Virus record (IMG/VR): IMGVR_UViG_3300045993_000425
Coordinates: 32,001 to 96,000 of that record
Strand: one strand, 5' to 3'
DNA: 64,000 bases
Source: a virus
Shown: piece after piece, positions 5,571 to 60,075 of the stretch
Layout of the letters: every line of letters starts with the position of its first letter
Position numbering within the stretch: position 1 is the first letter of the stretch
Translations under genes and position numbers: made by a program
The notes under the pieces: model-generated
Database searches by the model: none
What the model was told of the DNA's origin: nothing
Seen by the model: the letters and a program-made list of their open reading frames with translations, nothing else

Positions 5571-5631
5571 CTGCCGTCCATTATGTGGCAAGAGAAGGGA
5601 GATCGGGCAGAGCTGACCGATCTTCTCACTT

Positions 5632-5638
5632 AGATTAC
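5632..5638 (-). promoter_or_regulatory. Putative late promoter motif GTAATCT
   Basis: Upstream of baseplate gene start at 5570; recurrent motif; the leader contains a GAGAAGATCGG/CCGATCT..TTCTC hairpin. Confidence 0.55.
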
Positions 5639-5654
5639 GCTCATCTCACACCTG

Positions 5655-5683
5655 TTGACTAAAGACCACAGTGATGGTATCAA
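5655..5683 (+). promoter_or_regulatory. Sigma70-like promoter
   Basis: TTGACT-N17-TATCAA with TG extension. Confidence 0.6.
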
Positions 5684-5702
5684 AGCGTCCACGAGGCAGA
5701 AC

Positions 5703-5996
5703 ATGAAACGACAGACCAGAGTTGCGTGTGTCGGGAAATACCTGGGTGAAGAAATAGTCGTCGATTTGACAGTACGTTTCGGCCAACTGATGTCTCTGTC
5801 GGTCGAACTAGCTGACGACAGAGCCAGAGTCGACGCCACCCTCACCGGCCAAGAAAGCAAGAGCTCACTGGTGACAGATTGTGTCGGTCACTTTGAGATG
5901 CAGTACGAGGAACAACAAGGAGAGCCCCCGACAGAGTTAAGGACTGAAGCCTGGCACCAGTTGTTCCAAGAAGCCTGGTCTAAGGTGCTGCTATAA
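5703..5996 (+). CDS. Hypothetical protein (early gene inserted in the baseplate cluster)
   Basis: ATG with GAGG RBS downstream of the sigma70-like promoter; converges on 5997. Confidence 0.6.
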   Translation: MKRQTRVACVGKYLGEEIVVDLTVRFGQLMSLSVELADDRARVDATLTGQESKSSLVTDCVGHFEMQYEEQQGEPPTELRTEAWHQLFQEAWSKVLL

Positions 5997-8603
5997 CTAC
6001 CGAGACATGTCGAAAGACACCGGAATCAGGACATCTGAGCCTCTGACACCCAGCTCCAGGCCGACCCTAGCAACAGGACCATCTATTTTGACCGAGGCAG
6101 ACCTGATGCCGGTCAAGTTCTTATTCTGGAATGTGCCCCTGAGCCCAGCCATCAGGTCTTTGGCCGACACATCTGCCAAGCTAGAACCAACCGGAAGGTC
6201 GACACCGAAGCCAGGATGCAGCATCATGGCCCCTCTGGGAGTCGAGAGGGCAATCCTAGTCCACTGGATCAGCGACTCTAGGCCGTAGCAGAACGGCCAG
6301 TTACCATCCGGCTGAATTGCGATGTCGCCACGCTCTGTGAGTGCTCCATCGATGTCCCCAGCCTCGAGGATTTTGGCTAGGTCGGACTCATTCGGGCTAT
6401 AGGGCTGGTTGATCTGGCTAGTGTCGTCGCTAGGGATATAGAGAACCTGCCCAGAGTGGACGGTGTGAGGTGCCCACCACCTTGCTTTGGCGTTCTCTGT
6501 GACCTTCCAGAGGTCCAAGTCAGCGTCCCCATCCAGCGTGACCATCCACATCGAGGGTCCATCCTGGCGAACATTTCTGACAGTCCGCACCTCGACACGC
6601 CTGATGTCCGAGAAGATATGGATCGACTGCCCCAGGACGAGGCTGGAAGCGTCAGCTAGAGCGATCTGATTCCCTCTGCCGTTGATCAGGAGCGAGGCTG
6701 TGGTGCCTGTCTCGTCGATGTAGGGCTGGCGAAGGTCGTTCAGAGCGGCGATCTCAAACCACCTCTGGCTATCTCCCAGGTACTGCTGCGCCATTCGCTC
6801 GAGGGAGCCCCCGTAGGTGTAAGGAACCGCGAACTTGGACTTGGGAACCCTCATGGCGATCTGCGCTTGGTTGGCTACGCCTGCAACGTAGTCAATGGTC
6901 AACTTGGGTGGATTCCTGACTGTCTGGGCTAGGGTAGCCATCTGACCCATGACCTGAGCAGCCTCCATGAGAGCCGCAAGAACCTCTAGGTCTTCGTCCA
7001 TCGGCTCCCTTTGCTGGACGACGGTCGTGGTGGTGGTTGTGTTCGTACCGCTGACGATGGTGTCTCCATGCTGACCCTTGTCCTGGCTAGCTGGTTCGGC
7101 ACCAGGCGACCTCATGCAGGTATTGAAGGTGTCGCTACCGAGCCCCACCTTGGCTGCGTACTTCGCCAGTGTGTCTAAGATCTGCTGCTGGAACTTCCTG
7201 AAGTCCGCAGCTGTCAGCTTACGAACCTCCTTGAGCTCCTCCTCGATCATCTTCTTGACTTTGCTGTTCTGGGGAGCGGTCCTGGCATCGATCATGCTAT
7301 TGATGGCATCCCTGGTAGCTGGGTTCATATTCGCCATGATCTCAGCCGCTGTCGCGCTACCGTTGCCCGCATCATTCCTGGCCTGATCGAGGTCTTCGTT
7401 GATGCTCTGGTCGGTTCCGGTGGTTCCACGCAGGACATCTGGAGGTCCCAGCCCTGGCGGATTGGGCCCAAGCTGACCGAAGTTCTGGTTGCTGGGGGCT
7501 GTTGAGTCCTTCCTGAGGATGGCGGCGAGGCTGTTGGCTGAGTCACCGAAGGAATTGATTCCTTTGTACCATTCCTGCTGAATGACGTTCTTGAAGTCAC
7601 TCAGGGTGGTGACGAAGCCGCCGACATCTTTGATCAGCAAGCCAACCTCTCGGATCGGACCCATTACAGTGCTGTCAAAATCCTGCTCGATGCCTGTGAT
7701 GATGCTGCTCAGGCCCTGAAGGGTGTTATGCAGAGCATTCAGCCGTCCCATGATCTGGCTGAAGATGGATGCATCTCGAGGTTTGGCAGAGCGCCAAGCT
7801 AGTTCTTGTGGCTCCACAGCTCCGATCTTTGAGGGATCGATCCTCTTCCATGCTTGGAATTGTAGCGAGTATCGGTACTCGAAAGGGCTCCCAGCGGACC
7901 TGCTCACTCGAAAAGCCTGAGGGGTCACAAGATAGGCTGCTTGTTCCTTCCAGATCAGCAGAGCGAGGCGTAGATCTCGCCCAGAGGTGGTCTTCTTGAC
8001 TTCAGCGTAGGACTCTAGGTATCGCTGAAGGATGCGGAATTGGGCATAGCCTGATTCTCGCGGGTCGATCTCATTGTCTACGTTGACCTTGAACTCTGGT
8101 CCTAAGACAACCTGACGAGCCGATGCAATGGTTCTGGTGACGGCAGAGATTGTTCCACCAAATAGCCCGCCTAGTTCATGCAGAAGCCCGCCTTGAAGTG
8201 ACTCGCCGCTCTTGCGGAGTGGATGCACACCGAATGTTCCCGAGAATGATATTTGCCTGAATGGGGCTCCTCCGTTTTGTTCAACCACTCCGTCTAGAGT
8301 AGCCGCAACAGAGGAGGCGAACGGCATCGCATTGCTTAGTTCCTCGGGGTTGATCGGGAGCGAAAAGATCGAATCGCTGAATACCGAGTATGAGCCGGGT
8401 CCAGCTTGAAGAACCACTAGTTCATAAGGATAGGACGAGGACCAGTTTCTGAACCCGATGTCTGATGAGACATCATAGCGGGCAGTAGCGGGCACCTTGC
8501 TAGCTAGGTCCGCTAGATTTTGCTCAACGTACCGACTGCTCAACAGTTCGGTCTTACCGTCAGCTGGACCACCCAGAATGTTCGCAATGCCGAGGACGTT
8601 CAT
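5997..8603 (-). CDS. Multidomain baseplate protein: tube-initiator-like N-terminus, LysM/gpX-like middle, gp25/gpW-like C-terminus
   Basis: 'FSLPINPEEL..ISFSGTFG' N-terminus; 'SLERMAQQYLGDSQRWFEIAALNDL' LysM-like; 'GLESLIQWTRIALSTPRGAMMLHPGFG' gp25-like; baseplate synteny. Confidence 0.7.
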   Translation of the reverse strand: MNVLGIANILGGPADGKTELLSSRYVEQNLADLASKVPATARYDVSSDIGFRNWSSSYPYELVVLQAGPGSYSVFSDSIFSLPINPEELSNAMPFASSVAATLDGVVEQNGGAPFRQISFSGTFGVHPLRKSGESLQGGLLHELGGLFGGTISAVTRTIASARQVVLGPEFKVNVDNEIDPRESGYAQFRILQRYLESYAEVKKTTSGRDLRLALLIWKEQAAYLVTPQAFRVSRSAGSPFEYRYSLQFQAWKRIDPSKIGAVEPQELAWRSAKPRDASIFSQIMGRLNALHNTLQGLSSIITGIEQDFDSTVMGPIREVGLLIKDVGGFVTTLSDFKNVIQQEWYKGINSFGDSANSLAAILRKDSTAPSNQNFGQLGPNPPGLGPPDVLRGTTGTDQSINEDLDQARNDAGNGSATAAEIMANMNPATRDAINSMIDARTAPQNSKVKKMIEEELKEVRKLTAADFRKFQQQILDTLAKYAAKVGLGSDTFNTCMRSPGAEPASQDKGQHGDTIVSGTNTTTTTTVVQQREPMDEDLEVLAALMEAAQVMGQMATLAQTVRNPPKLTIDYVAGVANQAQIAMRVPKSKFAVPYTYGGSLERMAQQYLGDSQRWFEIAALNDLRQPYIDETGTTASLLINGRGNQIALADASSLVLGQSIHIFSDIRRVEVRTVRNVRQDGPSMWMVTLDGDADLDLWKVTENAKARWWAPHTVHSGQVLYIPSDDTSQINQPYSPNESDLAKILEAGDIDGALTERGDIAIQPDGNWPFCYGLESLIQWTRIALSTPRGAMMLHPGFGVDLPVGSSLADVSAKDLMAGLRGTFQNKNLTGIRSASVKIDGPVARVGLELGVRGSDVLIPVSFDMSR

Positions 8604-9692: not shown

Positions 9693-11519
9693 TTAGTCTC
9701 CGGTCACGTCAGGGATGACTACTTTGGTCGGGTCCAGAGCGGCGAATATGTCGGCTCGGTTGGTCGATGATTGAGGTGGAACCGACACACCATGACTTAA
9801 CTGCAAGGTCGTGCGGAATGATCTTCGACCATCGGGGTTGCATACAGCTTGGTGTGTCACTTGCTCGATGTGAAATACGATGTCGTCAAACTCTAGGTTG
9901 TCGCCAGGTGCGACAGGAGCCTGCAACCCAATACATTCTATCGTTCCGTTAAGCCATAGTTGCTGACCCATAACTAGGTCGCACATCAGGTCGCGCCAGA
10001 CGGTAGGCCCTTTCTGCGCCTCTGCCAGAAGACAATTGATGCTTCTGATGTACGGTCGGATACCATGCCTCTTGACATCAAGGGTGTCGATAATAGGAGG
10101 AGCCCTGACGAAGCTGTTGTAGTCATCCCTAGCCCACAGTCCCTGTGCCGAGATGTAGACCATATTGAATCTGGCTGCATCGCTGCGCCCTATATCGAGT
10201 CCATAGACCATGTCGACAGACAGTTTCCATCTCGGAAGTTCAAGGAAACGGGTCGCGTCAGCATTGGTTGCCGACCTGCCAAAATTGATCTGGTTCTGTG
10301 TAGGGCCGTACATGCTGCTGTTTCCGGTGCCTCCGAATTGCTCCATCGTTTTTGCATCCTGCTGCGCCGCTTTCTGACCTTCGTCTTGGTTGATGTCCAG
10401 CAAGCTCTGAACCATGTCTGAGCTGTATGGTGTCTGTCGCACGACAAAGCTGGGCAGCAACCGACCTGTCTTAGGCTCAGACCGGATGGCTACATACATC
10501 TCATTGATCGGAGGGTTGCAGTACGTTGACAGAGTGTTCCAGACAGTCTGATTGGGCGCCGGAGCGGCCAGCTTAAATTGCCCAATCATATCGGTCAACT
10601 CTGGCTCAAACAGCACCTCGGGGGTGCCCTTAGTCGATTGTTCGTCGCCTCCTGCTTGATTCTGATAGTGCTGGAGCCCGACCTTAACCGACAGCATATC
10701 GGCCCATGTGGGACTCACATTAGTCGGCGTCACACCTAGCCACTTAGCAACATCCTCATGAATCAGGTATCTGGTGTTTGCCGTAGCGGTTACGGTTACG
10801 GACGGCAGCTTGGTCGGCTGTGCCTTCGCCCAAGCCCCATCTCCGAAGATGCATCCAATCAAGGCAGGCAGCACCTTGTTGATGTCGATCCCCGACCCAT
10901 TGGTACTACTCGACCCATTGGTGATTTTCTCGATCTCCAGCCCGAAGTCCTTCAGGTTGGCTAGTTCTACCATCCCTTTCTGCAACTGCGGGTGGTAGTA
11001 CAACAGCGAATCAAACTCTCCAAAGCCGACCGCCTGCATCGAAAACGATGTCGATCTGGTCCCATCTGCCTGCACATGAATGCTCTTACGGAACGAAGAT
11101 ACCTTGCCGATGAACTTTAGGCCTCGGTTGAACTGATTGATCGGTCGCCAGTTCAGCATATCGTCCTCAAGTTGCTTGCCTTCCTGCTCATTGTTGACAA
11201 TACAAGCGACAACCCAATCACCAGGCATGATGAGAGGCAGGTAGTCGATATATGGCACGAGAACAGCCTGAAGATTGGTGACGTGACTATCCTTGGCTGC
11301 CGCTACGGTCAACTGTACGATCTGCTGGCTCAGGATTAGCATGTTTCTGGACTTCATCGCATCCGCATCGTTTGTTGATACTGAGTTGATTTCATCCTTG
11401 GTCTTCGGATCGAATGTCACCTGATTGTCAAAGCGGGCAATTCCGACCACCCAGTAAGGTGACTGATCGATTAGGTCATCGGAAGGGAAGTCGGTTCTGA
11501 GGTTGTAGGTCGGGGCCAT
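9693..11519 (-). CDS. Baseplate hub (gpD/gp27-like)
   Basis: Directly downstream of the tape measure; C-terminal 'NGTIECIG..PGDNLEF..FHIEQVTH..RTTLQLSHG' typical of hub proteins. Confidence 0.65.
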   Translation of the reverse strand: MAPTYNLRTDFPSDDLIDQSPYWVVGIARFDNQVTFDPKTKDEINSVSTNDADAMKSRNMLILSQQIVQLTVAAAKDSHVTNLQAVLVPYIDYLPLIMPGDWVVACIVNNEQEGKQLEDDMLNWRPINQFNRGLKFIGKVSSFRKSIHVQADGTRSTSFSMQAVGFGEFDSLLYYHPQLQKGMVELANLKDFGLEIEKITNGSSSTNGSGIDINKVLPALIGCIFGDGAWAKAQPTKLPSVTVTATANTRYLIHEDVAKWLGVTPTNVSPTWADMLSVKVGLQHYQNQAGGDEQSTKGTPEVLFEPELTDMIGQFKLAAPAPNQTVWNTLSTYCNPPINEMYVAIRSEPKTGRLLPSFVVRQTPYSSDMVQSLLDINQDEGQKAAQQDAKTMEQFGGTGNSSMYGPTQNQINFGRSATNADATRFLELPRWKLSVDMVYGLDIGRSDAARFNMVYISAQGLWARDDYNSFVRAPPIIDTLDVKRHGIRPYIRSINCLLAEAQKGPTVWRDLMCDLVMGQQLWLNGTIECIGLQAPVAPGDNLEFDDIVFHIEQVTHQAVCNPDGRRSFRTTLQLSHGVSVPPQSSTNRADIFAALDPTKVVIPDVTGD

Positions 11520-11522
11520 GAT

Positions 11523-14270
11523 TTAGTGTGCCAGGTCTTCTTTAGGCAGACCGGCCTGTTCGTTGGTTGGTGACTTGTGCGCGTCTCTGTCGAGTGGCAT
11601 TGATGGACCCTTTTCATCAGGTGTAAGGTCCGGCTTCTTGAGCCCCATCATGATGAGGAACATTTCATTGACCTTGGATCCACTTGTGGTCAGCTGTTCC
11701 ATCAACTCCCTGAACTTCTCCCCTTGCTTAAACATAGCCTTGGAGAACACATCTTTCTGGTCGCCACCTCCCCCACCTGTGGCCTTCCGACTCGCCTCTC
11801 CAGAGCCGTCTCCCATTGACCTGACTTGTCCGGTTGCTGCTTCTGCGCTTCCGAATGTTTCTGGATCGATCTGGTATTCTAGGTTTGCCAGCACCCTGAA
11901 GTTGTCTTCGCTTGCCCCAAGTCCGTCCTTCCTGGACTTGTCGTTTCTCCACTTCAAGACATCGCCCTTATACTCATCACCCAGAATCAGGTTGGCGAGC
12001 TTTGTCGCCTGCGTACCGGCTCCGGATGTTCCCCCGATGTAAGTGCCTAGAGCCCTGGTCGCACTGAACCTGACTTTATCTTCGATGTTCTTTCGTGTGA
12101 TACCCATAGAACTGAACTCAATTGGGATATCTTTGGTTAGGTAGTTGCCATTCTTGTCTTTCCTCAATAGACTCATGGCTGTGGCATAATCGAGGTTCGC
12201 CAACATGTTCTGACCTAGCAAGTTGTTGCCAGGCATGACCTTCACCGCATCTGCTAGGTTGACAGAGCGCCGCCAGTCGGTAGCTCCTTTCAATAGGTTG
12301 TCCCCTACCTGCAATCCCATTTGGTTCTGCTGCAACATCCGAAGCTGCTCTGGGCTCTTCATCTTGTTGGGGTCAATGCCGCTCGAGAGCATGCCGACTA
12401 GGCCATCCATAGACCCAATGGTGCGGTTAGGACCCATCAATGCAGCCACGGCACTGCCGAGAGTCTCCTGTACCACCGTTTGGTCAAGACCCGTGTGGCG
12501 CAGTGTTTTCAGTAAGTCCCCGCCACCAAGTGCTCCAATGGCTGCGATAGTCGCCGCTGCCCCACCAGACATGCCTCCAGACACTGATGTTATTGCAGAA
12601 CCATACAACCCTTTGGTCTTTAGTACCCCTCTCCCGCCAGCACCGACTAATGCCTCTAGCAAACCTTGTTGCTGCTCTGGTGTCATCCCAGACTTGTAGG
12701 CATTTCGCGTTGCTAGCTCGATGGACGATGCTGACAACCCGATGCGATTCGATGTAGCGACCAATCCTTGTGCTCGACTTAGAGCTGTGCTAATGGCTGC
12801 GTTCTCTCTCGTCTGCGAGGCTTTCTTTCTGGCGACTGAATCCGCCTCTTGTTCGTTCAGCATAGCGTTGACGTTTGCGTCTGCGTTGGCTAGCTCAGCT
12901 TGCCGAATATTTGGATGTAGGATGTTTCGTGCTGTATTATCCAGATATCCCCAGATTGTCTTCTGTCTCTCTCCTAGATCGTAGGCAGCGGCTCGAGACT
13001 TCCCGAAGCTTGCGGCTGAACCGTCGTCATCGCTAACGGTGCCGATTCTTCTGCTATCAATGATCTGCTGACGGGCATATTCCGTAATCAAGTCACCGTG
13101 CTGGATACTTGCCTGCATCTGCCCTACGCTCTGTCCTGACCTCGCTGCGATGCCCATCTGCATATCAGCAGCTTGCTGTCGTAGTTCAAGCGTATCTCTC
13201 TGGTATCCATGCACAAACTGCCCAGCCTTAACGCCGGCGTAGATTCCAGCGAGTCCTAGCCCGAGAGCCCCTGCTCCACCAGCAATAAACGCTAGCCTGC
13301 CTCCAGCTAGTGTGTTAGCCAATCCTCCAGCACCGGGAATTGAGCCAAGAGCCCCCGCCAGCATTCCAAAGCGATCACTTCCCTCCTCGCCATATCCTGC
13401 CTGCTGATCTAGAAGGGACTTGTGATTGGCCGAAACACTAGCAAGTCGTCTACCGGCTGTCGCCATGCGCTCGTTCGCTGCGATTCGCTCTTTAGAAGAG
13501 GCCGCGCTCTCTGCCTTATCCTTCCACTTGGCGTAGCTATCCGACAGCCCGTTGATGATTCGCTTGGACTTCTCCAGCTTCTTGTCTAGGTCTTCTACCG
13601 ACCTCCCGAGCACCTCCTTCAGGACCCGTCCCGTCTTGCCGGCCTCCCCACCGAGTTCCTTGATGAGAGCCTTGTCCTTCAGGATGGCATTGGACAAACC
13701 GCCACGCTGCTCTGGTGACATCAGCTGCTTTTCATGCAGACGCTTGGGCTTCTCATCTGGAGCAACCAACGTCCTCTCGCTACCCAGCTCCCCCTGCTTG
13801 ACATACAGCTTCGATACAATGCGATTCACTTGTTCGTTTTTCTTTACAAGCTTGGGCACTTGACTAGGGTTGACCTCCCTCGCAAGGTCTAGAGCTGCTT
13901 GGGTGCCCTCCTTCAACGCCAAAGCCTTCTGGAGCCTAGAGGTTGTCTTAGAGATTCGACTGTCCACTTGCGCCAGTGACTGACTCAGCACCTGCTTGAG
14001 AACACGGTCGAGGGTCTTCGCTTGGTCCCCTAGTTCCGCGAACCCCCTCTTACGCTCTAGGAGGAACTTCGCGAAAGCTCCCTGCGCCAGATTCTGCTGC
14101 TGGGCAGACATAGGTCTGCTACCGGCACCACCAGCCCCACCCTGCCCAATTGCGCTGAAGACCTTGCTAGCCTGACCACCCTGGCTGATGATCTGCTGGA
14201 GTACCTGAAGGATCTGCCTACCACCGCTGGCATCACCTTTGATCGCAATACGCAAGTTGGTATCGGCCAC
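11523..14270 (-). CDS. Tail tape measure protein
   Basis: 915 aa, helical and Ala/Gly-rich with a hydrophobic segment; lies between chaperones and hub. Confidence 0.75.
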   Translation of the reverse strand: MADTNLRIAIKGDASGGRQILQVLQQIISQGGQASKVFSAIGQGGAGGAGSRPMSAQQQNLAQGAFAKFLLERKRGFAELGDQAKTLDRVLKQVLSQSLAQVDSRISKTTSRLQKALALKEGTQAALDLAREVNPSQVPKLVKKNEQVNRIVSKLYVKQGELGSERTLVAPDEKPKRLHEKQLMSPEQRGGLSNAILKDKALIKELGGEAGKTGRVLKEVLGRSVEDLDKKLEKSKRIINGLSDSYAKWKDKAESAASSKERIAANERMATAGRRLASVSANHKSLLDQQAGYGEEGSDRFGMLAGALGSIPGAGGLANTLAGGRLAFIAGGAGALGLGLAGIYAGVKAGQFVHGYQRDTLELRQQAADMQMGIAARSGQSVGQMQASIQHGDLITEYARQQIIDSRRIGTVSDDDGSAASFGKSRAAAYDLGERQKTIWGYLDNTARNILHPNIRQAELANADANVNAMLNEQEADSVARKKASQTRENAAISTALSRAQGLVATSNRIGLSASSIELATRNAYKSGMTPEQQQGLLEALVGAGGRGVLKTKGLYGSAITSVSGGMSGGAAATIAAIGALGGGDLLKTLRHTGLDQTVVQETLGSAVAALMGPNRTIGSMDGLVGMLSSGIDPNKMKSPEQLRMLQQNQMGLQVGDNLLKGATDWRRSVNLADAVKVMPGNNLLGQNMLANLDYATAMSLLRKDKNGNYLTKDIPIEFSSMGITRKNIEDKVRFSATRALGTYIGGTSGAGTQATKLANLILGDEYKGDVLKWRNDKSRKDGLGASEDNFRVLANLEYQIDPETFGSAEAATGQVRSMGDGSGEASRKATGGGGGDQKDVFSKAMFKQGEKFRELMEQLTTSGSKVNEMFLIMMGLKKPDLTPDEKGPSMPLDRDAHKSPTNEQAGLPKEDLAH

Positions 14271-53870: not shown

Positions 53871-54210
53871 GGGCATGTAACGGTATCGATTTCGGGACGA
53901 GAGGATAGAACGCGAGCAGGGCAAGCCTATGGCCCTTCAAACCCAAGGCAACGCAACAACTGCCAACGACAACGTTGAGCAGGCCGCTTACGCTCTCGCA
54001 GCGTAGCGACCCGGAGAACGGTGAGATACCTCTGGTAACCGTCAACTCCGTCAGCACAAGAGGCGCCTAGACTCGGGTCACCGGGGTCCAAGGTAGACAA
54101 ACAGGTGCTGCAAGGTAGCCGAAGACCACGCCTGGAGCCGCCAGGACACGCTCGTAGGGTTCTACCAAACAACCTGAAAGACATGGGTTCGACTCCCATC
54201 ATGTCCACCA
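53871..54210 (+). ncRNA. ssrA: tmRNA
   Basis: Acceptor GGGCATG/CATGTCC-ACCA with G3:U; T-arm ATGGG-TTCGACT-CCCAT; tag ORF 53962-54006 ANDNVEQAAYALAA*. Confidence 0.95.
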
Positions 54211-54477: not shown

Positions 54478-56049
54478 ATGCGACTGATCGAGCAGACGGT
54501 AGAGCTAGAGTGGATCACCCCTGATGCCCTCAAGGTCATCGAGACGGCAGGTCGGGTATCCTACAAGTCGGAAGACCTCATCACCGACACCTCCGCTGCT
54601 GTCTTCGTAAATAAATTGAACCGGCTCGGTCACCACAGCGTCCTGGAGCATGCCTGTGCCTCTGTCAGGGTTGTGACAGATAGAGGTATCTCTCACGAAC
54701 TGGTTCGGCACAGGATTGCCAGTTTCACCCAAGAATGCGTATCTGGAGATACGAAGATCGACAAGAACCTTACGATCAAGGAAGCGTTTGATCGTCGGAA
54801 GCAAGGTCTACGCATCAAGAGCGAGATGGCCGGTCGAATCGTTCCAAATTGGATCGATGAGGTTCTTTACAATGGGAAAGCCCCTGTATACAGGGTTACC
54901 ACCAGGCTTGGCTATTGCATCAAGACGACATTGGCTCATGAGTTCAAGAAATCAGATGGAGAGTTCGTCAGACTCGAGTCACTAACGGTCGGTGACAAGG
55001 TAATGGTCAACGGAAGACCATGCTTGTTAACTATATCTGACGATGCACTAGAGTATGAGTACTTTGGGCTCCACCTGGCTCCGACAGAGATAGCTGAGAA
55101 GTACATGGTTTCTGCTCAGGTGGTTCGGCGGCGGCTCCATAAGCTTGGCATCTTTGAGAAACACATCAACGACAAGAACCCCGACAAGTACAGCAAGAAC
55201 GTCACGCAGTACAGCATTGAGAAGATGAGAGAGGCTATTCTCGATCAGTACTCCAATGGACGAAAGCCTTGGAATCTTGGGCTCACAGAACATGACCACC
55301 CAGGTGTCGCGACACAAGCAGATACACTCCGCACTCATCACTGGGATAATTCCCAACGACCAAACCACGGTCCCGGTATCGTCGATACTGTAGGTCACAT
55401 GAGAGCTCGCGAATTGAAGATCGATGTAACGTCGTGCGAGTTATGCTCTTGCGACACCGACCTACACGTTCATCACATCAACTCACTTCCACATGACAAC
55501 AGAATGGAGAATCTGATCAAGGTATGTGTCAAGTGCCATGCTAGACTTCACTGTGGGTGGTGGTTGGCGGTTGTTGCCCATCCAGATGAAATCGTCTCTA
55601 TCGAACTAGTCGGTGAAGAGGATGTCTACGACCTAAGAATGCGCCCTCCGCTGCACAACTACATAGCAAATGGCTTTGTTGTGCATAATTCCACGAGATA
55701 CGTCTCCTATGCCAAGGAGAAGCATGGGGGAGGCGACATCCGCTTCATCCTCCCTGTCGGCCTGGATGAGTACCAGCAGAGGCTATTTGAGCAGGCCTAT
55801 CGGGACTCTGAGAGGCACTACCTCGAGGCTATCCGGCTTGGCTGCTCTCCCCAGCAGGCGAGAGACATCCTCCCCTGCGGTGTCAAGACAGAACTAGTGA
55901 TAACCGCTAACTTCCGCGAATGGATCCATATCCTTACCCTCAGGACGGACAAAGCTGCCCATCCCAAGATGCGAGTCCTGGCTGGGATGATCAGAGATGT
56001 ACTATCAGAGCAGTGTCCTGTCGTTTTCAAGACTGAGGAGAAGCCGTGA
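54478..56049 (+). CDS. thyX: Flavin-dependent thymidylate synthase with intein
   Basis: 'GHHSVLEH', 'SHELVRHRIASFTQE|STRYV', 'QQARDILP', 'NFREWIH..LR'. Confidence 0.95.
   Translation: MRLIEQTVELEWITPDALKVIETAGRVSYKSEDLITDTSAAVFVNKLNRLGHHSVLEHACASVRVVTDRGISHELVRHRIASFTQECVSGDTKIDKNLTIKEAFDRRKQGLRIKSEMAGRIVPNWIDEVLYNGKAPVYRVTTRLGYCIKTTLAHEFKKSDGEFVRLESLTVGDKVMVNGRPCLLTISDDALEYEYFGLHLAPTEIAEKYMVSAQVVRRRLHKLGIFEKHINDKNPDKYSKNVTQYSIEKMREAILDQYSNGRKPWNLGLTEHDHPGVATQADTLRTHHWDNSQRPNHGPGIVDTVGHMRARELKIDVTSCELCSCDTDLHVHHINSLPHDNRMENLIKVCVKCHARLHCGWWLAVVAHPDEIVSIELVGEEDVYDLRMRPPLHNYIANGFVVHNSTRYVSYAKEKHGGGDIRFILPVGLDEYQQRLFEQAYRDSERHYLEAIRLGCSPQQARDILPCGVKTELVITANFREWIHILTLRTDKAAHPKMRVLAGMIRDVLSEQCPVVFKTEEKP
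54736..55689 (+). mobile_element. Intein (318 aa) with HNH endonuclease
   Basis: C-VSGDTKI...'VYDL..HNYIANGFVVHN'|S; 'CELC..LHVHHI..DNRMENL..CVKCH'. Confidence 0.92.
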
Positions 56050-56886: not shown

Positions 56887-56930
56887 TTGACCGGCATCCT
56901 GCCTGCTGCTATCATTGCGGGATGCCGGTC
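56887..56930 (+). promoter_or_regulatory. xis/int promoter overlapped by an 11-bp perfect inverted repeat (putative operator)
   Basis: TTGACC-N17-TATCAT; GACCGGCATCC (56889-56899) and GGATGCCGGTC (56920-56930). Confidence 0.65.
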
Positions 56931-56959: not shown

Positions 56960-57277
56960 ATGTCAGAACACTGCCAAGGCCTCCTGCTCTGTCGTAGTTG
57001 CTGCGCCTCCTACCTGGGCGTTAGCCTCAAGACATTCCAGCGACATATCAGACCCAGCCTCAAGGGTGTGCGTGTCGGAGATGTCCGATGGACCAAGGCC
57101 GGCCTCGATGAGTGGGTCAAGTCCCACCAGGAGGCTCCATGTCAGGCTACGAAGTATTCCAGAAAAAGAACGGATCAGGCAAGGTTAGCCCCTTCTACAG
57201 GGTCCGCTTCACCCTCGACGGCAAGCAGGTTAGTTTCCCAACGGGTGAGAGAGATGGAGCGGCTGCTGACCGGGTAG
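56960..57277 (+). CDS. Excisionase-like HTH protein
   Basis: 'ASYLGVSLKTFQRHIR..RWTKAGLDEWV'; overlaps the integrase start. Confidence 0.7.
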   Translation: MSEHCQGLLLCRSCCASYLGVSLKTFQRHIRPSLKGVRVGDVRWTKAGLDEWVKSHQEAPCQATKYSRKRTDQARLAPSTGSASPSTASRLVSQRVREMERLLTG

Positions 57278-58392
57278 GTGCTCAGATCTACCTGACTCAC
57301 CACCAGCAGGCTGGGAAGCCGGTTCCTGAGGGTACAGTCGACGCAGAAGACATCACCCTGGTCAGGGTCGGAGCCATCCTTCTGGTAGCCCTAGAGGATG
57401 AACTCGCCAGGGGAGACATCAAAAGGGGCCCCAGGTTTGTGAAGGATGTCCGCTTTGATATCCGAGGCATCCAGACCAAGTTCCAGACGATCACCCAGCT
57501 AACCGGGCCAGAGTGGACCAAAGCCGTCAAAGAGTGGCACGCTGGCTATCCTGACAGGAAGGAAGCCCTTAGCTGGCGCTACCTCCAGCGATGGACCATC
57601 ACAGCTAGAGCTCTGACCAGGCACGCGAAGCTGCTAGGGCTGATCGATGTCGTCCCGACCCTTGTCGCTCCCAGCAATGAGCAGGTCAAGAACGAAGAGG
57701 CTCATCGCAGAGCCTACTCGCTGGACGAGAGGGACCTCTTCCTGGCCACTGTAGCCGAGATGGCTAAGGACTCCCCCAGAGGCAAGAGGAAGGGGAGGAG
57801 AGCCTACAGGGCCTTCCTGGTGCTCTTCACGACAGGTCTAAGGAAGTCGGCCCTCGAGCGGATGAGAGTCAGGCAGATCAACTGGGATACCGGCTTCGTC
57901 GTTCTACCGGCTGGAACGATGAAGAAGAGGAACAGGGATCGCGAGATCTGGCTGCGCCCAGAAACCAAGCAGGCCATTCTGGAGGAGCTGGAGGAGGTCA
58001 GGGCAGACCTGGGACGCGACCTCCTGCCTTCCGACTTCGTCTTTGGCGAGATGGACCTCCGCTATTGGTTCAGGTCTGCCATCAGAAAGGCGGGCATCGA
58101 CCCTCGAGGTCTGACAGCTCACCATGCGACCAGGCACACCCTAGCCACCCAGCTAGGTGACGCTGATGCCACCCTGGCCCAGATGCTAAACACCTTCCAC
58201 TGGGAAACACCTACGATGCCAGCTCGGTACATGCACGACAACGCCCAGCTCGCTAAGGCTGCATTAGAGCGACTCCCACCGCCGGTACTACCTCTGCCTC
58301 AATCAAAAGCTAGCGTTGCAGGAGAGCCCGTTTCCGTTCGCCTGGATGCCGCTCCTGAATCCGGTCGCAATCTGCCTAACCAGACCACTTAG
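57139..58392 (+). CDS. int: Tyrosine integrase
   Basis: AGGAGG RBS; arm-binding-like N-terminus; 'TGLRKSAL', 'HHATRHT', 'ARYMH'. Confidence 0.9.
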   Translation: MSGYEVFQKKNGSGKVSPFYRVRFTLDGKQVSFPTGERDGAAADRVGAQIYLTHHQQAGKPVPEGTVDAEDITLVRVGAILLVALEDELARGDIKRGPRFVKDVRFDIRGIQTKFQTITQLTGPEWTKAVKEWHAGYPDRKEALSWRYLQRWTITARALTRHAKLLGLIDVVPTLVAPSNEQVKNEEAHRRAYSLDERDLFLATVAEMAKDSPRGKRKGRRAYRAFLVLFTTGLRKSALERMRVRQINWDTGFVVLPAGTMKKRNRDREIWLRPETKQAILEELEEVRADLGRDLLPSDFVFGEMDLRYWFRSAIRKAGIDPRGLTAHHATRHTLATQLGDADATLAQMLNTFHWETPTMPARYMHDNAQLAKAALERLPPPVLPLPQSKASVAGEPVSVRLDAAPESGRNLPNQTT

Positions 58393-58400
58393 GAGATCCC

Positions 58401-58646
58401 GTGACACCCATCAGCGCAACCCAGACCATCGGCAGCAAGAGGTACTCGACCGACAACTCGACATTGCTGGGCGACGACAGCATCACCATGCTCTTCCGCA
58501 CCCCCAACGGCCATTACTTCGGACAGAAGTCGGATGGAATCCTCTTCAAGCTAGATCTGGACGATGCCATCGACCTCTTTTTGACCCTAGTCCCCACGAT
58601 GTCATTCTGGGAAGCCTTCCCTGGAATCACCATCCAGGATGCCTAA
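58401..58646 (+). CDS. Hypothetical protein
   Basis: AGGAG RBS; GTG start. Confidence 0.6.
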   Translation: MTPISATQTIGSKRYSTDNSTLLGDDSITMLFRTPNGHYFGQKSDGILFKLDLDDAIDLFLTLVPTMSFWEAFPGITIQDA

Positions 58647-58648
58647 AT

Positions 58649-58819
58649 TAGGGACCAGCTAGGGACCGATAGCGGCTAAGTGCCTGTATTTCGGTGCTGA
58701 GTCATGGATTTTGAGTCCTTAACCCAGCCTAGCATGAGAGTAAAATCATAGGCTTGAATGGGTCCTAGCGGGTCCTAGACTCCCCTCTCGGGCCCTAATT
58801 TAGGGACCGGCTAGGGACC
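58649..58819. other. attP: arm-type repeats flanking a tRNA-Leu(CAA) anticodon-arm core
   Basis: TAGGGACC pairs at 58649/58660 and 58801/58812; inverted GGGTCCTAG x2 at 58760-58778; core GGATTTTGAGTCC at 58706-58718. Confidence 0.8.
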
Positions 58820-59107
58820 GGAAATACACTGAAAGGGCTTGACTCCCAGGAGGCTGCTGATCACGGTCCCGAGGACAGCCCCAGCAACCGTGAAGACAGA
58901 GCCGGTGGCGACGACCCCGAGGAGCATCCCGAAGCCAACCAGAGCCCTGGCGGCCAGGAGAGCTGGAACCGGGTTGCCGAAGATGCCGCCAGCCAGAAGG
59001 AGGCCTGCATAGCCTCCGTAGACGAGGGCGGGGACTAGCGCGAAGACGATGAAGAGGGAGGCGCCAGCGAATGCGCCGAGGACAGCCGCTGTCTTGTTCT
59101 GAGTCAT
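58811..59107 (-). CDS. Small hydrophobic membrane protein (host-like moron)
   Basis: AAGGAG RBS; 'LVPALVYGGYAGLLLAGGIFG'; stop falls inside the att arm repeats. Confidence 0.7.
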   Translation of the reverse strand: MTQNKTAAVLGAFAGASLFIVFALVPALVYGGYAGLLLAGGIFGNPVPALLAARALVGFGMLLGVVATGSVFTVAGAVLGTVISSLLGVKPFQCISGP

Positions 59108-59132
59108 GTGAATCTCCTTGACCCAGGATATT

Positions 59133-59149
59133 AGCAAGCTGCGTGCCAA
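59133..59149 (-). promoter_or_regulatory. Sigma54 (-24/-12) promoter
   Basis: TTGGCACG-CAGC-TTGCT consensus match upstream of 59107. Confidence 0.75.
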
Positions 59150-59254
59150 CAAAAATCACTGATAATACAGGAACTGGCAGAATAGTCAAGTCCTATTCTG
59201 GCGAAAGATGTCTGGAAAAGCAGACAGTCAGAGATGTAGGGAAAAGGTGACTAG

Positions 59255-59340
59255 TGGTGCCCCGAGTCGGACTCGAACCGACAAGCCCCTGAGGGCAGCT
59301 ACTTTTGAGGCAGCCGTGTAAACCGTTCCACCATCGGGGC
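59255..59340 (-). tRNA. tRNA-Leu(CAA)
   Basis: GCCCCGA/TCGGGGC-ACCA; anticodon arm GCTGC-CTCAAAA-GTAGC; long variable arm; GTCGG-TTCGAGT-CCGAC. Confidence 0.95.
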
Positions 59341-59356
59341 TATGCCTGACACTAGC

Positions 59357-59686
59357 CTACAACGATCTGCAAGGGAAGGGGTCGATGCGATACTGCACCT
59401 CCGACCCAAGAGTCTGAGCAATCGCCAGCCTGCCCTTGACGCTGGTCGAGTGGATGATGACCTCGCCAGGTCGAAACTCCTTGGGCGTGCTGAACCTGAT
59501 GAAATGGGCCAAGTCGGACCCATTCCTGTCTGGCTGGAAGTCGAAGTCGAGAAAGAGACGACCGACCCTCCACCCCTGGAGGATGACCACTGCCTCCTCG
59601 TAAGTCGACACCATGTGGGCCTTGGGCAGCCGCTCCCTGAACCAAGCGAGCCTGCCGGGGTCATCATCTACAACGAGGTCGATCAC
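59357..59686 (-). CDS. Second cyclic-phosphate-processing receiver domain protein
   Basis: 'VVDDDPGR..LFLDFDF..NGSDLA..IIHSTS'. Confidence 0.7.
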   Translation of the reverse strand: MIDLVVDDDPGRLAWFRERLPKAHMVSTYEEAVVILQGWRVGRLFLDFDFQPDRNGSDLAHFIRFSTPKEFRPGEVIIHSTSVKGRLAIAQTLGSEVQYRIDPFPCRSL

Positions 59687-60075
59687 AGCGAGGCTCTGTC
59701 CAGCTTTAGGGGTCTGTCCGGAAACCCTGGACGATGAGCCATCACCGCACAAGAGCAGAAGGCGCAGTGAGTCAACTTGCCTTCTTCCAGGTGGCACTCG
59801 ATGTCATGTCCGCACCGGCAGAAGATAGGCGGATCGACCTCCTCTTTCCGCTTGGATGACATGACGAACAAGCTGGGGATCTCCTCCAGGCCCACTGTCA
59901 CGCTACGCACCTCCATCTTGCCCTCCTGCCTGACAAGCCAATCATCGCAGAAACGCCGCATCCGAATGTAGGTGTCGCTGGCTACCATGACAACAGCAGC
60001 TTCTGCACTGTCGGCCTCTACGAAAACTCCGTTCGTCTCTTCGTAGTCTCTGCACCACACCCAGTATCTGCTCAT
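59683..60075 (-). CDS. Hypothetical protein with C-terminal Zn-finger
   Basis: GGAGG RBS; 'CRCGH..H..CAFCSC'. Confidence 0.6.
   Translation of the reverse strand: MSRYWVWCRDYEETNGVFVEADSAEAAVVMVASDTYIRMRRFCDDWLVRQEGKMEVRSVTVGLEEIPSLFVMSSKRKEEVDPPIFCRCGHDIECHLEEGKLTHCAFCSCAVMAHRPGFPDRPLKLDRASL

What the first reader, a model, noticed from the sequence alone, without database searches (positions are those of the whole stretch)
56960..59340. Integration module predicted to destroy host tRNA-Leu(CAA) while supplying an integration-proof replacement
Seen: xis-int is followed by an intact attP with paired TAGGGACC arm repeats on both sides of GGATTTTGAGTCC (reverse GGA-CTCAAAA-TCC, a Leu-CAA anticodon arm). 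No tRNA 3' half (variable arm, T arm, CCA) adjoins the core, so integration would not rebuild the host gene. About 540 bp away is a full tRNA-Leu(CAA) with the same loop but a different stem (TGC-CTCAAAA-GTA), so it should not be a target. Known: tRNA-dependent lysogeny has been described in actinobacteriophages. Inference: the same logic in a large myovirus of a Gram-negative host, making the prophage indispensable for UUG decoding.
Basis: partly seen in the sequence, partly recalled or inferred. Interest (0 to 1): 0.8.

Follow-up and report, generated by a model that had tools for sequence, protein, structure and literature searches.

The report
Phage attP aimed at tRNA-Leu, spare tRNA

Summary
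A conserved xis-like gene and a tyrosine integrase are followed by a 164-bp intergenic attP. Six arm-type repeats flank the sequence GGATTTTGAGTCC. A complete tRNA-Leu(CAA) lies 537 bp away.

- The 13-mer is the anticodon arm of tRNA-Leu(CAA), and it occurs nearly always once, in 91 of 151 Myxococcota genomes.
- The phage's tail sheath is closest to Myxococcus phage Mx1.
- Of 12 integrase relatives examined, 11 carry a tRNA half in their attP, starting or ending exactly at the anticodon loop. Six of those are tRNA-Leu(CAA).
- This phage alone keeps only the 13-14 bases.
- Simulated junctions with eight host genes give no tRNA.

This matches the sequence-level features of tRNA-dependent lysogeny (Hatfull lab 2024; phage Gaia also uses Leu-CAA).

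Several points are not shown. No lysogen or junction was found, no repressor was recognised, and expression of the phage tRNA in a prophage is untested. "Indispensable" is doubtful, because Myxococcota also have tRNA-Leu(UAA). A Gram-negative precedent exists in Sinorhizobium prophages, and this scan has confirmed the same design on other DNA several times.

Verdict: a new member of a known kind, of moderate interest.

The parts
56887..56915 (+). Sigma-70-like promoter (TTGACC-17-TATCAT, with a TG extension) upstream of xis-int
   Evidence: Consensus scan, 10 of 12 matches. It is a consensus match only.
56960..57277 (+). Xis-like helix-turn-helix ORF. The conserved part is 56960-57150, and the frame stays open to 57277, overlapping the int start.
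   Evidence: Weak HTH_17 match (E 1.3e-3, below cut-off). tblastn finds homologues at 31-52% identity directly upstream of int in all 12 relatives (E down to 8e-17). An excisionase role is inferred from position and fold class.
57139..58392 (+). Tyrosine integrase, 417 aa
   Evidence: PF00589 at E 1.6e-12. Catalytic R235, K262, H329, R332, W355 and Y364 are present and invariant in the family alignment. It is sister to P0002, a tRNA-Leu(CAA) integrase, in the tree.
58401..58646 (+). 81-aa ORF of unknown function between int and attP. Relatives lack it; their P arm overlaps the int stop codon.
   Evidence: ORF list. No Pfam or NCBIfam match.
58649..58667 (.). P-arm: two direct TAGGGACC arm-type repeats
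58706..58718 (-). attP core GGACTCAAAATCC, read on the minus strand. It equals the tRNA-Leu(CAA) anticodon arm, and the 7-nt loop CTCAAAA is the presumed overlap region. It extends to 14 nt (58705) for hosts with a ..TGGA/TCCA.. stem.
   Evidence: Unique in the phage genome. Identical to the anticodon arm in 28 of 30 sampled Myxococcota loci. The identity blocks of relatives' att sites start at GGAC or end after CTCAAAA.
58760..58778 (.). Two inverted arm-like repeats, GGGTCCTAG x2
58801..58819 (.). P'-arm: two direct TAGGGACC repeats. They form a 27-nt direct repeat with the P arm at 152-nt spacing.
   Evidence: (family D1).
58811..59107 (-). 98-aa hydrophobic ORF between the tRNA and attP, in a moron-like position. 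Its stop lies within the P' repeats.
   Evidence: ORF list. No family match.
59134..59148 (-). Sigma-54-like -24/-12 element, TGGCACGCAGCTTGC, upstream of the 98-aa ORF. A sigma-70-like site lies at 59189-59162.
   Evidence: Read directly from the sequence.
59255..59340 (-). Complete phage tRNA-Leu(CAA). It is class II with a long variable arm, an encoded CCA and discriminator A, and its anticodon arm is GCUGC-CUCAAAA-GUAGC.
   Evidence: ARAGORN. Infernal RF00005 at 53 bits. It is 61-75% identical to Myxococcota tRNA-Leu(CAA) genes, which are its best matches in 301 genomes.

Best explanation
This is a lambda-type integration module (xis-like gene, tyrosine integrase, attP with arm-type repeats). 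[quoted passage not shown] Unlike almost all its relatives, this attP carries neither half of the tRNA, so strand exchange in the anticodon loop would split the host gene and rebuild it at neither junction. The phage's own tRNA-Leu(CAA) would then sit about 0.54 kb inside the attR end, in the same orientation as the broken host gene, and would supply the lost decoding function. Its anticodon stem differs from the integrase's core sequence, so it should not itself be a target. This is the 'tRNA-dependent lysogeny' design.

Shown: the anatomy, the identity of the 13-mer with the host tRNA arm, the family-wide habit of targeting anticodon loops, and the lack of a tRNA half.

Inferred: that integration happens at all, that the phage tRNA is expressed in the prophage and compensates, and that its altered stem protects it.
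For: (1) Likely host phylum. The tail sheath's only match in the phage collection is Myxococcus phage Mx1, at 42% identity. The one genomic relative of Int lies in a Myxococcales MAG.

(2) GGACTCAAAATCC is present in 91 of 151 Myxococcota genomes, nearly always once, while the reversed control pattern matched only a few. 28 of 30 sampled loci are tRNA-Leu(caa) genes with the 13-mer as the anticodon arm.

(3) 11 of 12 Int relatives at 28-41% identity have a tRNA half between paired arm repeats right after int.
- Leu-CAA 3' half: P0002, P0005, P0011, P0012, P0015.
- Leu-CAA 5' half: P0010.
- Leu-TAA: P0004, P0006.
- Gln-TTG: P0003.
- Arg-ACG: P0008.
- Arg-CCT: P0009.
 Anchored alignments show identity to host tRNA starting at GGAC or ending right after CTCAAAA. 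This phage matches over the 13-mer only.

(4) In the Myxococcales MAG, the 3' half of tRNA-Gln is repeated three times beside an int relative. This is an integrated state at the same sublocation.

(5) In the tree, this Int is sister to P0002 (Leu-CAA) inside a clade with 100/99 support whose other five members all carry 3' halves. Loss of the half therefore looks derived.

(6) Simulated attL and attR with 8 different host genes contain no tRNA, whereas each attB does.

(7) No longer match of the 191-nt attP was found in 401 Myxococcota genomes. The best E-value, 0.003 per genome, is at chance level.

(8) The phage tRNA has the same anticodon and is host-like class II, unlike Mx1's 75-nt version.

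(9) The phage has only three tRNAs, and the one for Leu is not for its commonest rare-type codon. CUA makes up 19.7% of its Leu codons and UUG 11.4%.

(10) The published definition and the Gaia/Omega pair (Leu-CAA, 8-bp versus 44-bp core, phage tRNA downstream of int) match this layout (PMC10865867).
Against: No attL or attR, lysogen or close relative of this phage exists in any collection searched. The integrase cluster has one member on one contig.

No HTH_3 or S24 repressor-type domain is present in the whole genome. The closest known phage, Mx1, has no integrase homologue. Temperate growth is therefore not established.

No promoter-like site precedes the tRNA in the region scanned. It starts 17 nt after the stop of an upstream gene, so expression in a prophage is unknown.

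Myxococcota commonly carry tRNA-Leu(UAA), which may read UUG, so loss of the host gene may be tolerable.

tRNA genes are common in this phage lineage: about 29 in Mx1, including a Leu(CAA). With three tRNAs, a chance match of anticodon is roughly 7% (my estimate).

The host is assigned only to phylum level, and indirectly.
Confidence: 0.6

Rival explanations
1. The module does integrate into tRNA-Leu(CAA) and breaks it, but the phage tRNA-Leu(CAA) is an ordinary phage tRNA for codon supply or for escape from tRNA-targeting defences. Its match to the target is a coincidence. The host tolerates the loss through tRNA-Leu(UAA) wobble.
For: Mx1 carries about 29 tRNAs, including Leu(CAA) and Leu(TAA). 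All three tRNAs and the tmRNA of this phage lie within 10 kb of each other, so nearness to attP is partly a by-product. UUG is 11.4% of phage Leu codons. tRNA-Leu(TAA) is common in Myxococcota.
Against: Only 3 tRNAs are kept, and one is exactly the isoacceptor whose gene the attP core matches. It is a host-like class II tRNA, not the Mx1 type. The commoner CUA codon has no phage tRNA. Relatives that rebuild the tRNA show no separate complete tRNA gene in the flanks read. ARAGORN's single call in L002 is the attP 3' half itself. This parallels the Omega/Gaia contrast.
Confidence: 0.2
2. The module is a decaying relic in an essentially lytic Mx1-like phage. The tRNA half was lost by deletion and the site no longer serves integration.
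For: No recognisable repressor. No lysogen or relative found. Mx1 lacks an integrase. An extra 81-aa ORF separates int from attP, unlike in relatives.
Against: The Int ORF is intact with all catalytic residues. The conserved xis-like gene is intact. Six arm-type repeats and a perfect 13-nt core survive in a 164-bp intergenic gap. A promoter-like site precedes xis-int.
Confidence: 0.12
3. The attB is not a tRNA gene. The 13-mer is only the integrase family's preferred dyad-symmetric core sequence, and the real target is another site with the same short motif.
For: With a core this short, attB cannot be predicted with certainty. The 13-mer also occurs by chance outside tRNA genes, for example inside a purD-like ORF in G114 and in 2 of 30 sampled loci. 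One relative, P0014, has an attP without any recognisable tRNA half.
Against: In Myxococcota genomes the tRNA-Leu(CAA) gene is by far the most regular carrier of the exact 13-mer. Six relatives target this very gene.
Confidence: 0.06

Closest known systems
tRNA-dependent lysogeny of actinobacteriophages (Guerrero-Bustamante and Hatfull, mBio 2024, PMC10865867), especially Mycobacterium phage Gaia (Cluster X) versus Omega (Cluster J)
   Same: A tyrosine integrase, an attB in a tRNA gene, and a common core too short to rebuild the tRNA. The core is 8-17 bp there and 13-14 bp here. [quoted passage not shown] Gaia uses tRNA-Leu(CAA) too. In both cases, related integrases with long cores (Omega; here P0002 and others) rebuild the tRNA and carry no separate complete tRNA gene in the flanks read.
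   Different: The host phylum here is probably Myxococcota, not Actinobacteria. The phage is a 167-kb contractile-tailed, Mx1-like phage. This case is in silico only: there are no junctions, no genetics and no recognised repressor. The integrase was not compared directly with the actinophage integrases, and no such match appeared in the searches run.
[quoted passage not shown]
   Same: A Gram-negative host. Integration in the central part of a tRNA-Leu gene inactivates it, and the prophage carries a tRNA-Leu of the same anticodon.
   Different: There the target is tRNA-Leu(UAG) and integrated prophages were observed in genomes. Here the target is Leu(CAA), and only the free phage genome is known.
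Classical tRNA-restoring integrases that cross over in the anticodon loop, namely this integrase's own relatives (P0002-P0012, P0015, and the Myxococcales MAG element at tRNA-Gln)
   Same: The same xis-int cassette, paired arm repeats, and a core at the GGAYT-NNN-AATCC anticodon arm.
   Different: They carry 40-55 nt of the tRNA 3' half, or in P0010 the 5' half, in attP. This phage carries none.
Myxococcus phage Mx1 (OR576727.2)
   Same: Closest tail sheath (42% identity), similar genome size (169.6 kb) and presence of tRNA genes.
   Different: Mx1 has about 29 tRNAs and no homologue of this integrase. Its Leu(CAA) is a 75-nt gene unrelated in type.

Membership tests
tRNA-dependent lysogeny (PMC10865867) | Phage-encoded tyrosine integrase with an attP site | tested here: met
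   PF00589 match, all catalytic residues, and arm-type repeats on both sides of a core.
tRNA-dependent lysogeny (PMC10865867) | attB overlaps a host tRNA gene | tested here: inconclusive
   The core equals the tRNA-Leu(CAA) anticodon arm of Myxococcota, and 6 relatives use that gene. No junction or lysogen of this phage was found, and the host is assigned only to phylum level.
tRNA-dependent lysogeny (PMC10865867) | Short common core (about 10 bp), so that no functional tRNA is rebuilt at attL or attR | tested here: met
   13-14 nt of identity only. No tRNA half in attP, and no tRNA in simulated attL or attR with 8 host genes. This is in silico.
tRNA-dependent lysogeny (PMC10865867) | [quoted passage not shown] | tested here: met
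   tRNA-Leu(CAA) at 59255-59340, 53 bits.
tRNA-dependent lysogeny (PMC10865867) | The host tRNA is essential, and the phage tRNA is required for survival of lysogens | not testable with these tools
   The 13-mer is single-copy in most genomes, but tRNA-Leu(TAA) genes are common and might read UUG. This needs genetics.
tRNA-dependent lysogeny (PMC10865867) | The phage is temperate (repressor present, stable lysogens) | tested here: inconclusive
   No HTH_3 or Peptidase_S24 anywhere in the genome, and no lysogen in the databases. Unrecognised repressor types cannot be excluded.
Anticodon-loop-integrating tyrosine integrase clade (relatives P0002-P0015) | Sequence and tree membership, and a conserved xis-like partner gene upstream | tested here: met
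   phmmer E 4e-71 to 1e-33. Nested in a clade with 100/99 support. A xis-like homologue sits upstream of int in all 12.
Anticodon-loop-integrating tyrosine integrase clade (relatives P0002-P0015) | attP carries a tRNA half that restores the gene | tested here: not met
   Present in 11 of 12 relatives and absent here.

The most novel reading that the evidence does not exclude
A large (167-kb) Mx1-like contractile-tailed phage of Myxococcota is temperate and uses tRNA-dependent lysogeny. On this reading the design arose inside an integrase clade that otherwise restores its tRNA targets. It arose by loss of the tRNA half from attP and capture of a host-type tRNA-Leu(CAA). That tRNA's anticodon stem was then re-coded so that the phage's own integrase cannot attack it. 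The lysogen comes to depend on the prophage for efficient UUG decoding. This would be an independent origin of the strategy, outside Actinobacteria and outside small siphoviruses.
Probability: 0.35. Interest if true: 0.55.

Novelty: new member of a known kind. Interest (0 to 1): 0.45.

Why it matters
If confirmed, tRNA-dependent lysogeny would extend to a new bacterial phylum (Myxococcota) and to a large myovirus lineage so far known only from the lytic phage Mx1. It would also come with a natural comparison set. Sister integrases restore the same tRNA through a 3' half or a 5' half, and this one restores nothing and brings a spare gene. That set shows how the strategy can evolve, and it defines the crossover to the anticodon loop. 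An int-attP-tRNA cassette could also serve as an integration vector for myxobacteria. The principle itself is published, and this scan has seen it repeatedly on other DNA, so the gain is breadth, not a new mechanism.

Tried and rejected
- A megablast of the module against phage records found nothing.
- The search for related loci with Int alone found nothing in genome contigs or viral contigs. The word-indexed protein search found only the protein itself.
- A P-arm-plus-loop pattern found nothing in viral contigs.
- The tail sheath found no relatives in viral contigs.
- The alternative plus-strand reading, as a tRNA-Gln(UUG) arm with loop UUUUGAG, was rejected. Myxococcota and family-member Gln sites read GGACTTTGAATCC, which differs in the loop. 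No 3' half follows on that strand either.
- A 19/20 match in genome G114 lies inside a purD-like coding region and is chance.
- The phage tmRNA matches Myxococcota tmRNAs only over the tag-coding stretch (78-94% over 34-65 nt), so it does not pin down a host.
- My first alignment of 'upstream ORFs' used wrongly called ORFs and showed no homology. tblastn corrected this.
- One of the 401 genomes in the negative tally (G197) is unpublished. No positive claim rests on it.
Full report
**What the DNA is.** The window is bases 32001-96000 of a 166,843-bp IMG/VR virus record that CheckV rates complete. Its two ends repeat 137 bp, so the assembly closes on itself. It encodes a contractile tail sheath (PHROG 279). 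The only match of that protein in the phage collection is Myxococcus phage Mx1, a 169.6-kb genome, at 42% identity. The genome has a tmRNA and three tRNAs (Tyr-GTA, Leu-CAA, Ala-TGC), all within about 10 kb.

**The observation.**
- A promoter-like site at 56887-56915 precedes a small helix-turn-helix ORF starting at 56960. Its Pfam match to HTH_17 is weak.
- tblastn finds a homologue of this ORF (31-52% identity) directly upstream of the integrase gene in all 12 relatives examined. xis-int is therefore a conserved cassette.
- The integrase (57139-58392) matches PF00589 and keeps R235, K262, H329, R332, W355 and Y364.
- After an 81-aa ORF of unknown function comes a 164-bp intergenic gap that is all attP.
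- Four of the eight TAGGGACC copies in the genome lie in these 172 bp, and the 13-mer is unique in the genome.
- The tRNA-Leu(CAA) at 59255-59340 (minus strand, 53 bits) has the arm GCUGC-CUCAAAA-GUAGC.

**Is the core really a tRNA-Leu(CAA) arm?** A 3-bp stem with a 7-nt loop is weak evidence by itself, so I looked for independent support.

First, an exhaustive HMMER search found 212 relatives of the integrase, the best at 39-41% identity. I read the DNA around 12 of them. In 11 of the 12, paired arm-type repeats just after int flank half of a tRNA gene that begins or ends at the anticodon loop:
- tRNA-Leu(CAA) 3' half: P0002, P0005, P0011, P0012, P0015.
- tRNA-Leu(CAA) 5' half: P0010.
- tRNA-Leu(TAA): P0004, P0006.
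- tRNA-Gln(TTG): P0003.
- tRNA-Arg(ACG): P0008.
- tRNA-Arg(CCT): P0009.
- No recognisable half: P0014, a more distant relative.

The closest relative, P0002, has the very same 13-mer, GGACTCAAAATCC, at the start of its 3' half.

Second, the only genomic relative found by a profile scan of 185,579 species genomes lies in a Myxococcales MAG. There the 3' half of tRNA-Gln(TTG) is repeated three times beside the int relative. That is an integrated, tandem state at the same sublocation.

Third, the 13-mer occurs in 91 of 151 Myxococcota genomes, almost always once, while the reversed control pattern matched only a few. 28 of 30 sampled loci are tRNA-Leu(caa) genes with the 13-mer as the anticodon arm.

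Fourth, alignments anchored on the loop show where identity to host tRNA begins and ends:
- In 3'-half attPs it starts at GGAC.
- In the 5'-half attP of P0010 (locus L081) it stops right after CTCAAAA.
- A second contig (L082) encodes a protein-identical int gene and continues into the host-type 3' side, as a junction would.
- In this phage it covers the 13-mer only, or 14 nt for hosts with a TGGA/TCCA stem.

The crossover in this family therefore lies in the anticodon loop, and this core fits it exactly.

In a maximum-likelihood tree, this integrase is sister to P0002 (support 86/92). Both sit inside a six-member clade with 100/99 support whose other five members all carry 3' halves. Lack of a half is thus most simply a derived loss.

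**Would integration destroy the gene?** attP contains no tRNA by ARAGORN, and no local similarity to either tRNA half beyond 6-12 nt. I simulated recombination at the core with eight different Myxococcota tRNA-Leu(CAA) loci. Every attB gave a tRNA-Leu call, and none of the 16 junctions did. A BLAST of the 191-nt attP against 401 Myxococcota genomes found no longer match. The best E-value, 0.003 per genome, is what 401 searches give by chance. A 19/20 hit in G114 lies inside a purD-like ORF.

**The replacement tRNA.** The phage tRNA is a class II leucine tRNA with discriminator A and an encoded CCA. Its best matches in 301 Myxococcota genomes are the hosts' own tRNA-Leu(CAA) genes, at only 71-75% identity. 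Mx1 has about 29 tRNAs and no homologue of this integrase. Its Leu(CAA) is a 75-nt gene of another type.

Read on the minus strand, the order is tRNA-Leu, then the 98-aa membrane ORF, then the P' repeats, the core, the P repeats, and int. After integration the phage tRNA would therefore lie about 0.54 kb inside attR, in the same orientation as the broken host gene (inference).

Its arm shares the 7-nt loop with the core but differs at 5 of the 6 stem positions. Family cores share roughly GGAYT-NNN-AATCC. The 'integration-proof' idea is therefore reasonable, but it is untested.

**What speaks against the full story.**
- No HTH_3 or S24 domain occurs in the genome, so no standard repressor is recognisable.
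- The tRNA has no promoter-like site of its own in the region scanned, and it follows an upstream gene by 17 nt.
- Myxococcota commonly have tRNA-Leu(TAA). By established wobble rules it may read UUG, so 'indispensable' is not supported.
- With three phage tRNAs, a chance anticodon match is about 7% (my estimate).
- UUG makes up 11.4% of phage leucine codons, so a role in lytic translation is also possible. The commoner CUA (19.7%) has no phage tRNA.

**Comparison with what is known.** The design is the one defined by Guerrero-Bustamante and Hatfull: a tyrosine integrase, an attB in a tRNA gene, a core of about 10 bp that does not rebuild the tRNA, and a phage tRNA of the same isotype (PMC10865867). 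Their Gaia/Omega pair even uses tRNA-Leu(CAA), with 8-bp and 44-bp cores and a phage tRNA downstream of int only in Gaia. A Gram-negative case, Sinorhizobium meliloti prophages that split tRNA-Leu(UAG) and carry a replacement, is published (PMC11476347, PMC12429752). This scan's own records hold several follow-up-confirmed cases of the same design on other DNA across phyla. I did not test those.

I therefore file this as a new member of a known kind. The sequence-level features are met. The functional ones (integration, essentiality, temperate growth) are untested or inconclusive.

**Verdict.** My estimates:
- About 0.85 that the core is a tRNA-Leu(CAA)-directed attP core.
- About 0.6 for the whole tRNA-dependent-lysogeny reading.
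- About 0.25 that the prophage would be truly indispensable.

Noticed in passing
window 53871-54210 (+): Phage-encoded tmRNA (Rfam RF00023, 87.9 bits). Read from the cmscan alignment, the tag is ANDNVEQAAYALAA, whereas ARAGORN reports a different tag, VNSVSTRGA. Myxococcota tmRNAs match only the tag-coding stretch (78-94% over 34-65 nt).
   Followed up: partly
window 54478-56049 (+): A ThyX (Thy1) gene interrupted by an intein splicing domain. The 523-aa ORF has the Thy1 match in two stretches with the intein at about residues 98-404.
   Followed up: no
window 59134-59148 (-), upstream of ORF 58811-59107: TGGCACGCAGCTTGC fits a sigma-54 -24/-12 element about 27 nt upstream of the start of a 98-aa very hydrophobic ORF. 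That ORF lies between the phage tRNA and attP, a moron-like position at the future prophage end. A sigma-70-like site (TTGACT-16-TATTAT) lies just upstream.
   Followed up: partly
window 59357-59797 (-): A 146-aa protein with a cREC_REC (cyclic-phosphate processing receiver) domain (PF20274, E 4e-9) ends 17 nt upstream of the tRNA-Leu gene.
   Followed up: no
window 59206-59251: A 20-nt direct repeat, AGATGTCTGGAAAAGCAGAC / AGATGTAGGGAAAAGGTGAC, lies between the 3' end of tRNA-Leu and the promoter region of the membrane ORF. Function unknown.
   Followed up: no
L081:2590-2760 and L082:1640-1754: Relative P0010 has an attP carrying the 5' half of tRNA-Leu(CAA) up to CTCAAAA, an unusual 5'-half type. 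A second contig encoding a protein-identical int gene continues into the tRNA 3' side, as an integrated junction would.
   Followed up: partly
L005:133-207, 1601-1675, 10983-11084: The Myxococcales MAG (DATBZA010000137.1) has three copies of the tRNA-Gln(TTG) 3' half, meaning two tandem elements. The int relative is split into two ORFs (5256-5738 and 5803-6423), so it is probably decayed.
   Followed up: partly
L099:3655-3790: Relative P0014 has GTAGATCC arm repeats around a terminator-like hairpin and no recognisable tRNA half. It may be a non-tRNA attB within the wider family.
   Followed up: no
L058:10951-11024 and 11852-11926 (Mx1): Mx1's tRNA-Leu(TAA) and tRNA-Leu(CAA), as called by ARAGORN, are only 74-75 nt and lack the long variable arm expected of bacterial leucine tRNAs.
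   Followed up: no
G000 ends (genome 1-137 and 166707-166843): The record is classed 'linear' by IMG/VR, but its last 137 bases repeat its first 137. This is consistent with a circular or terminally redundant genome.
   Followed up: partly
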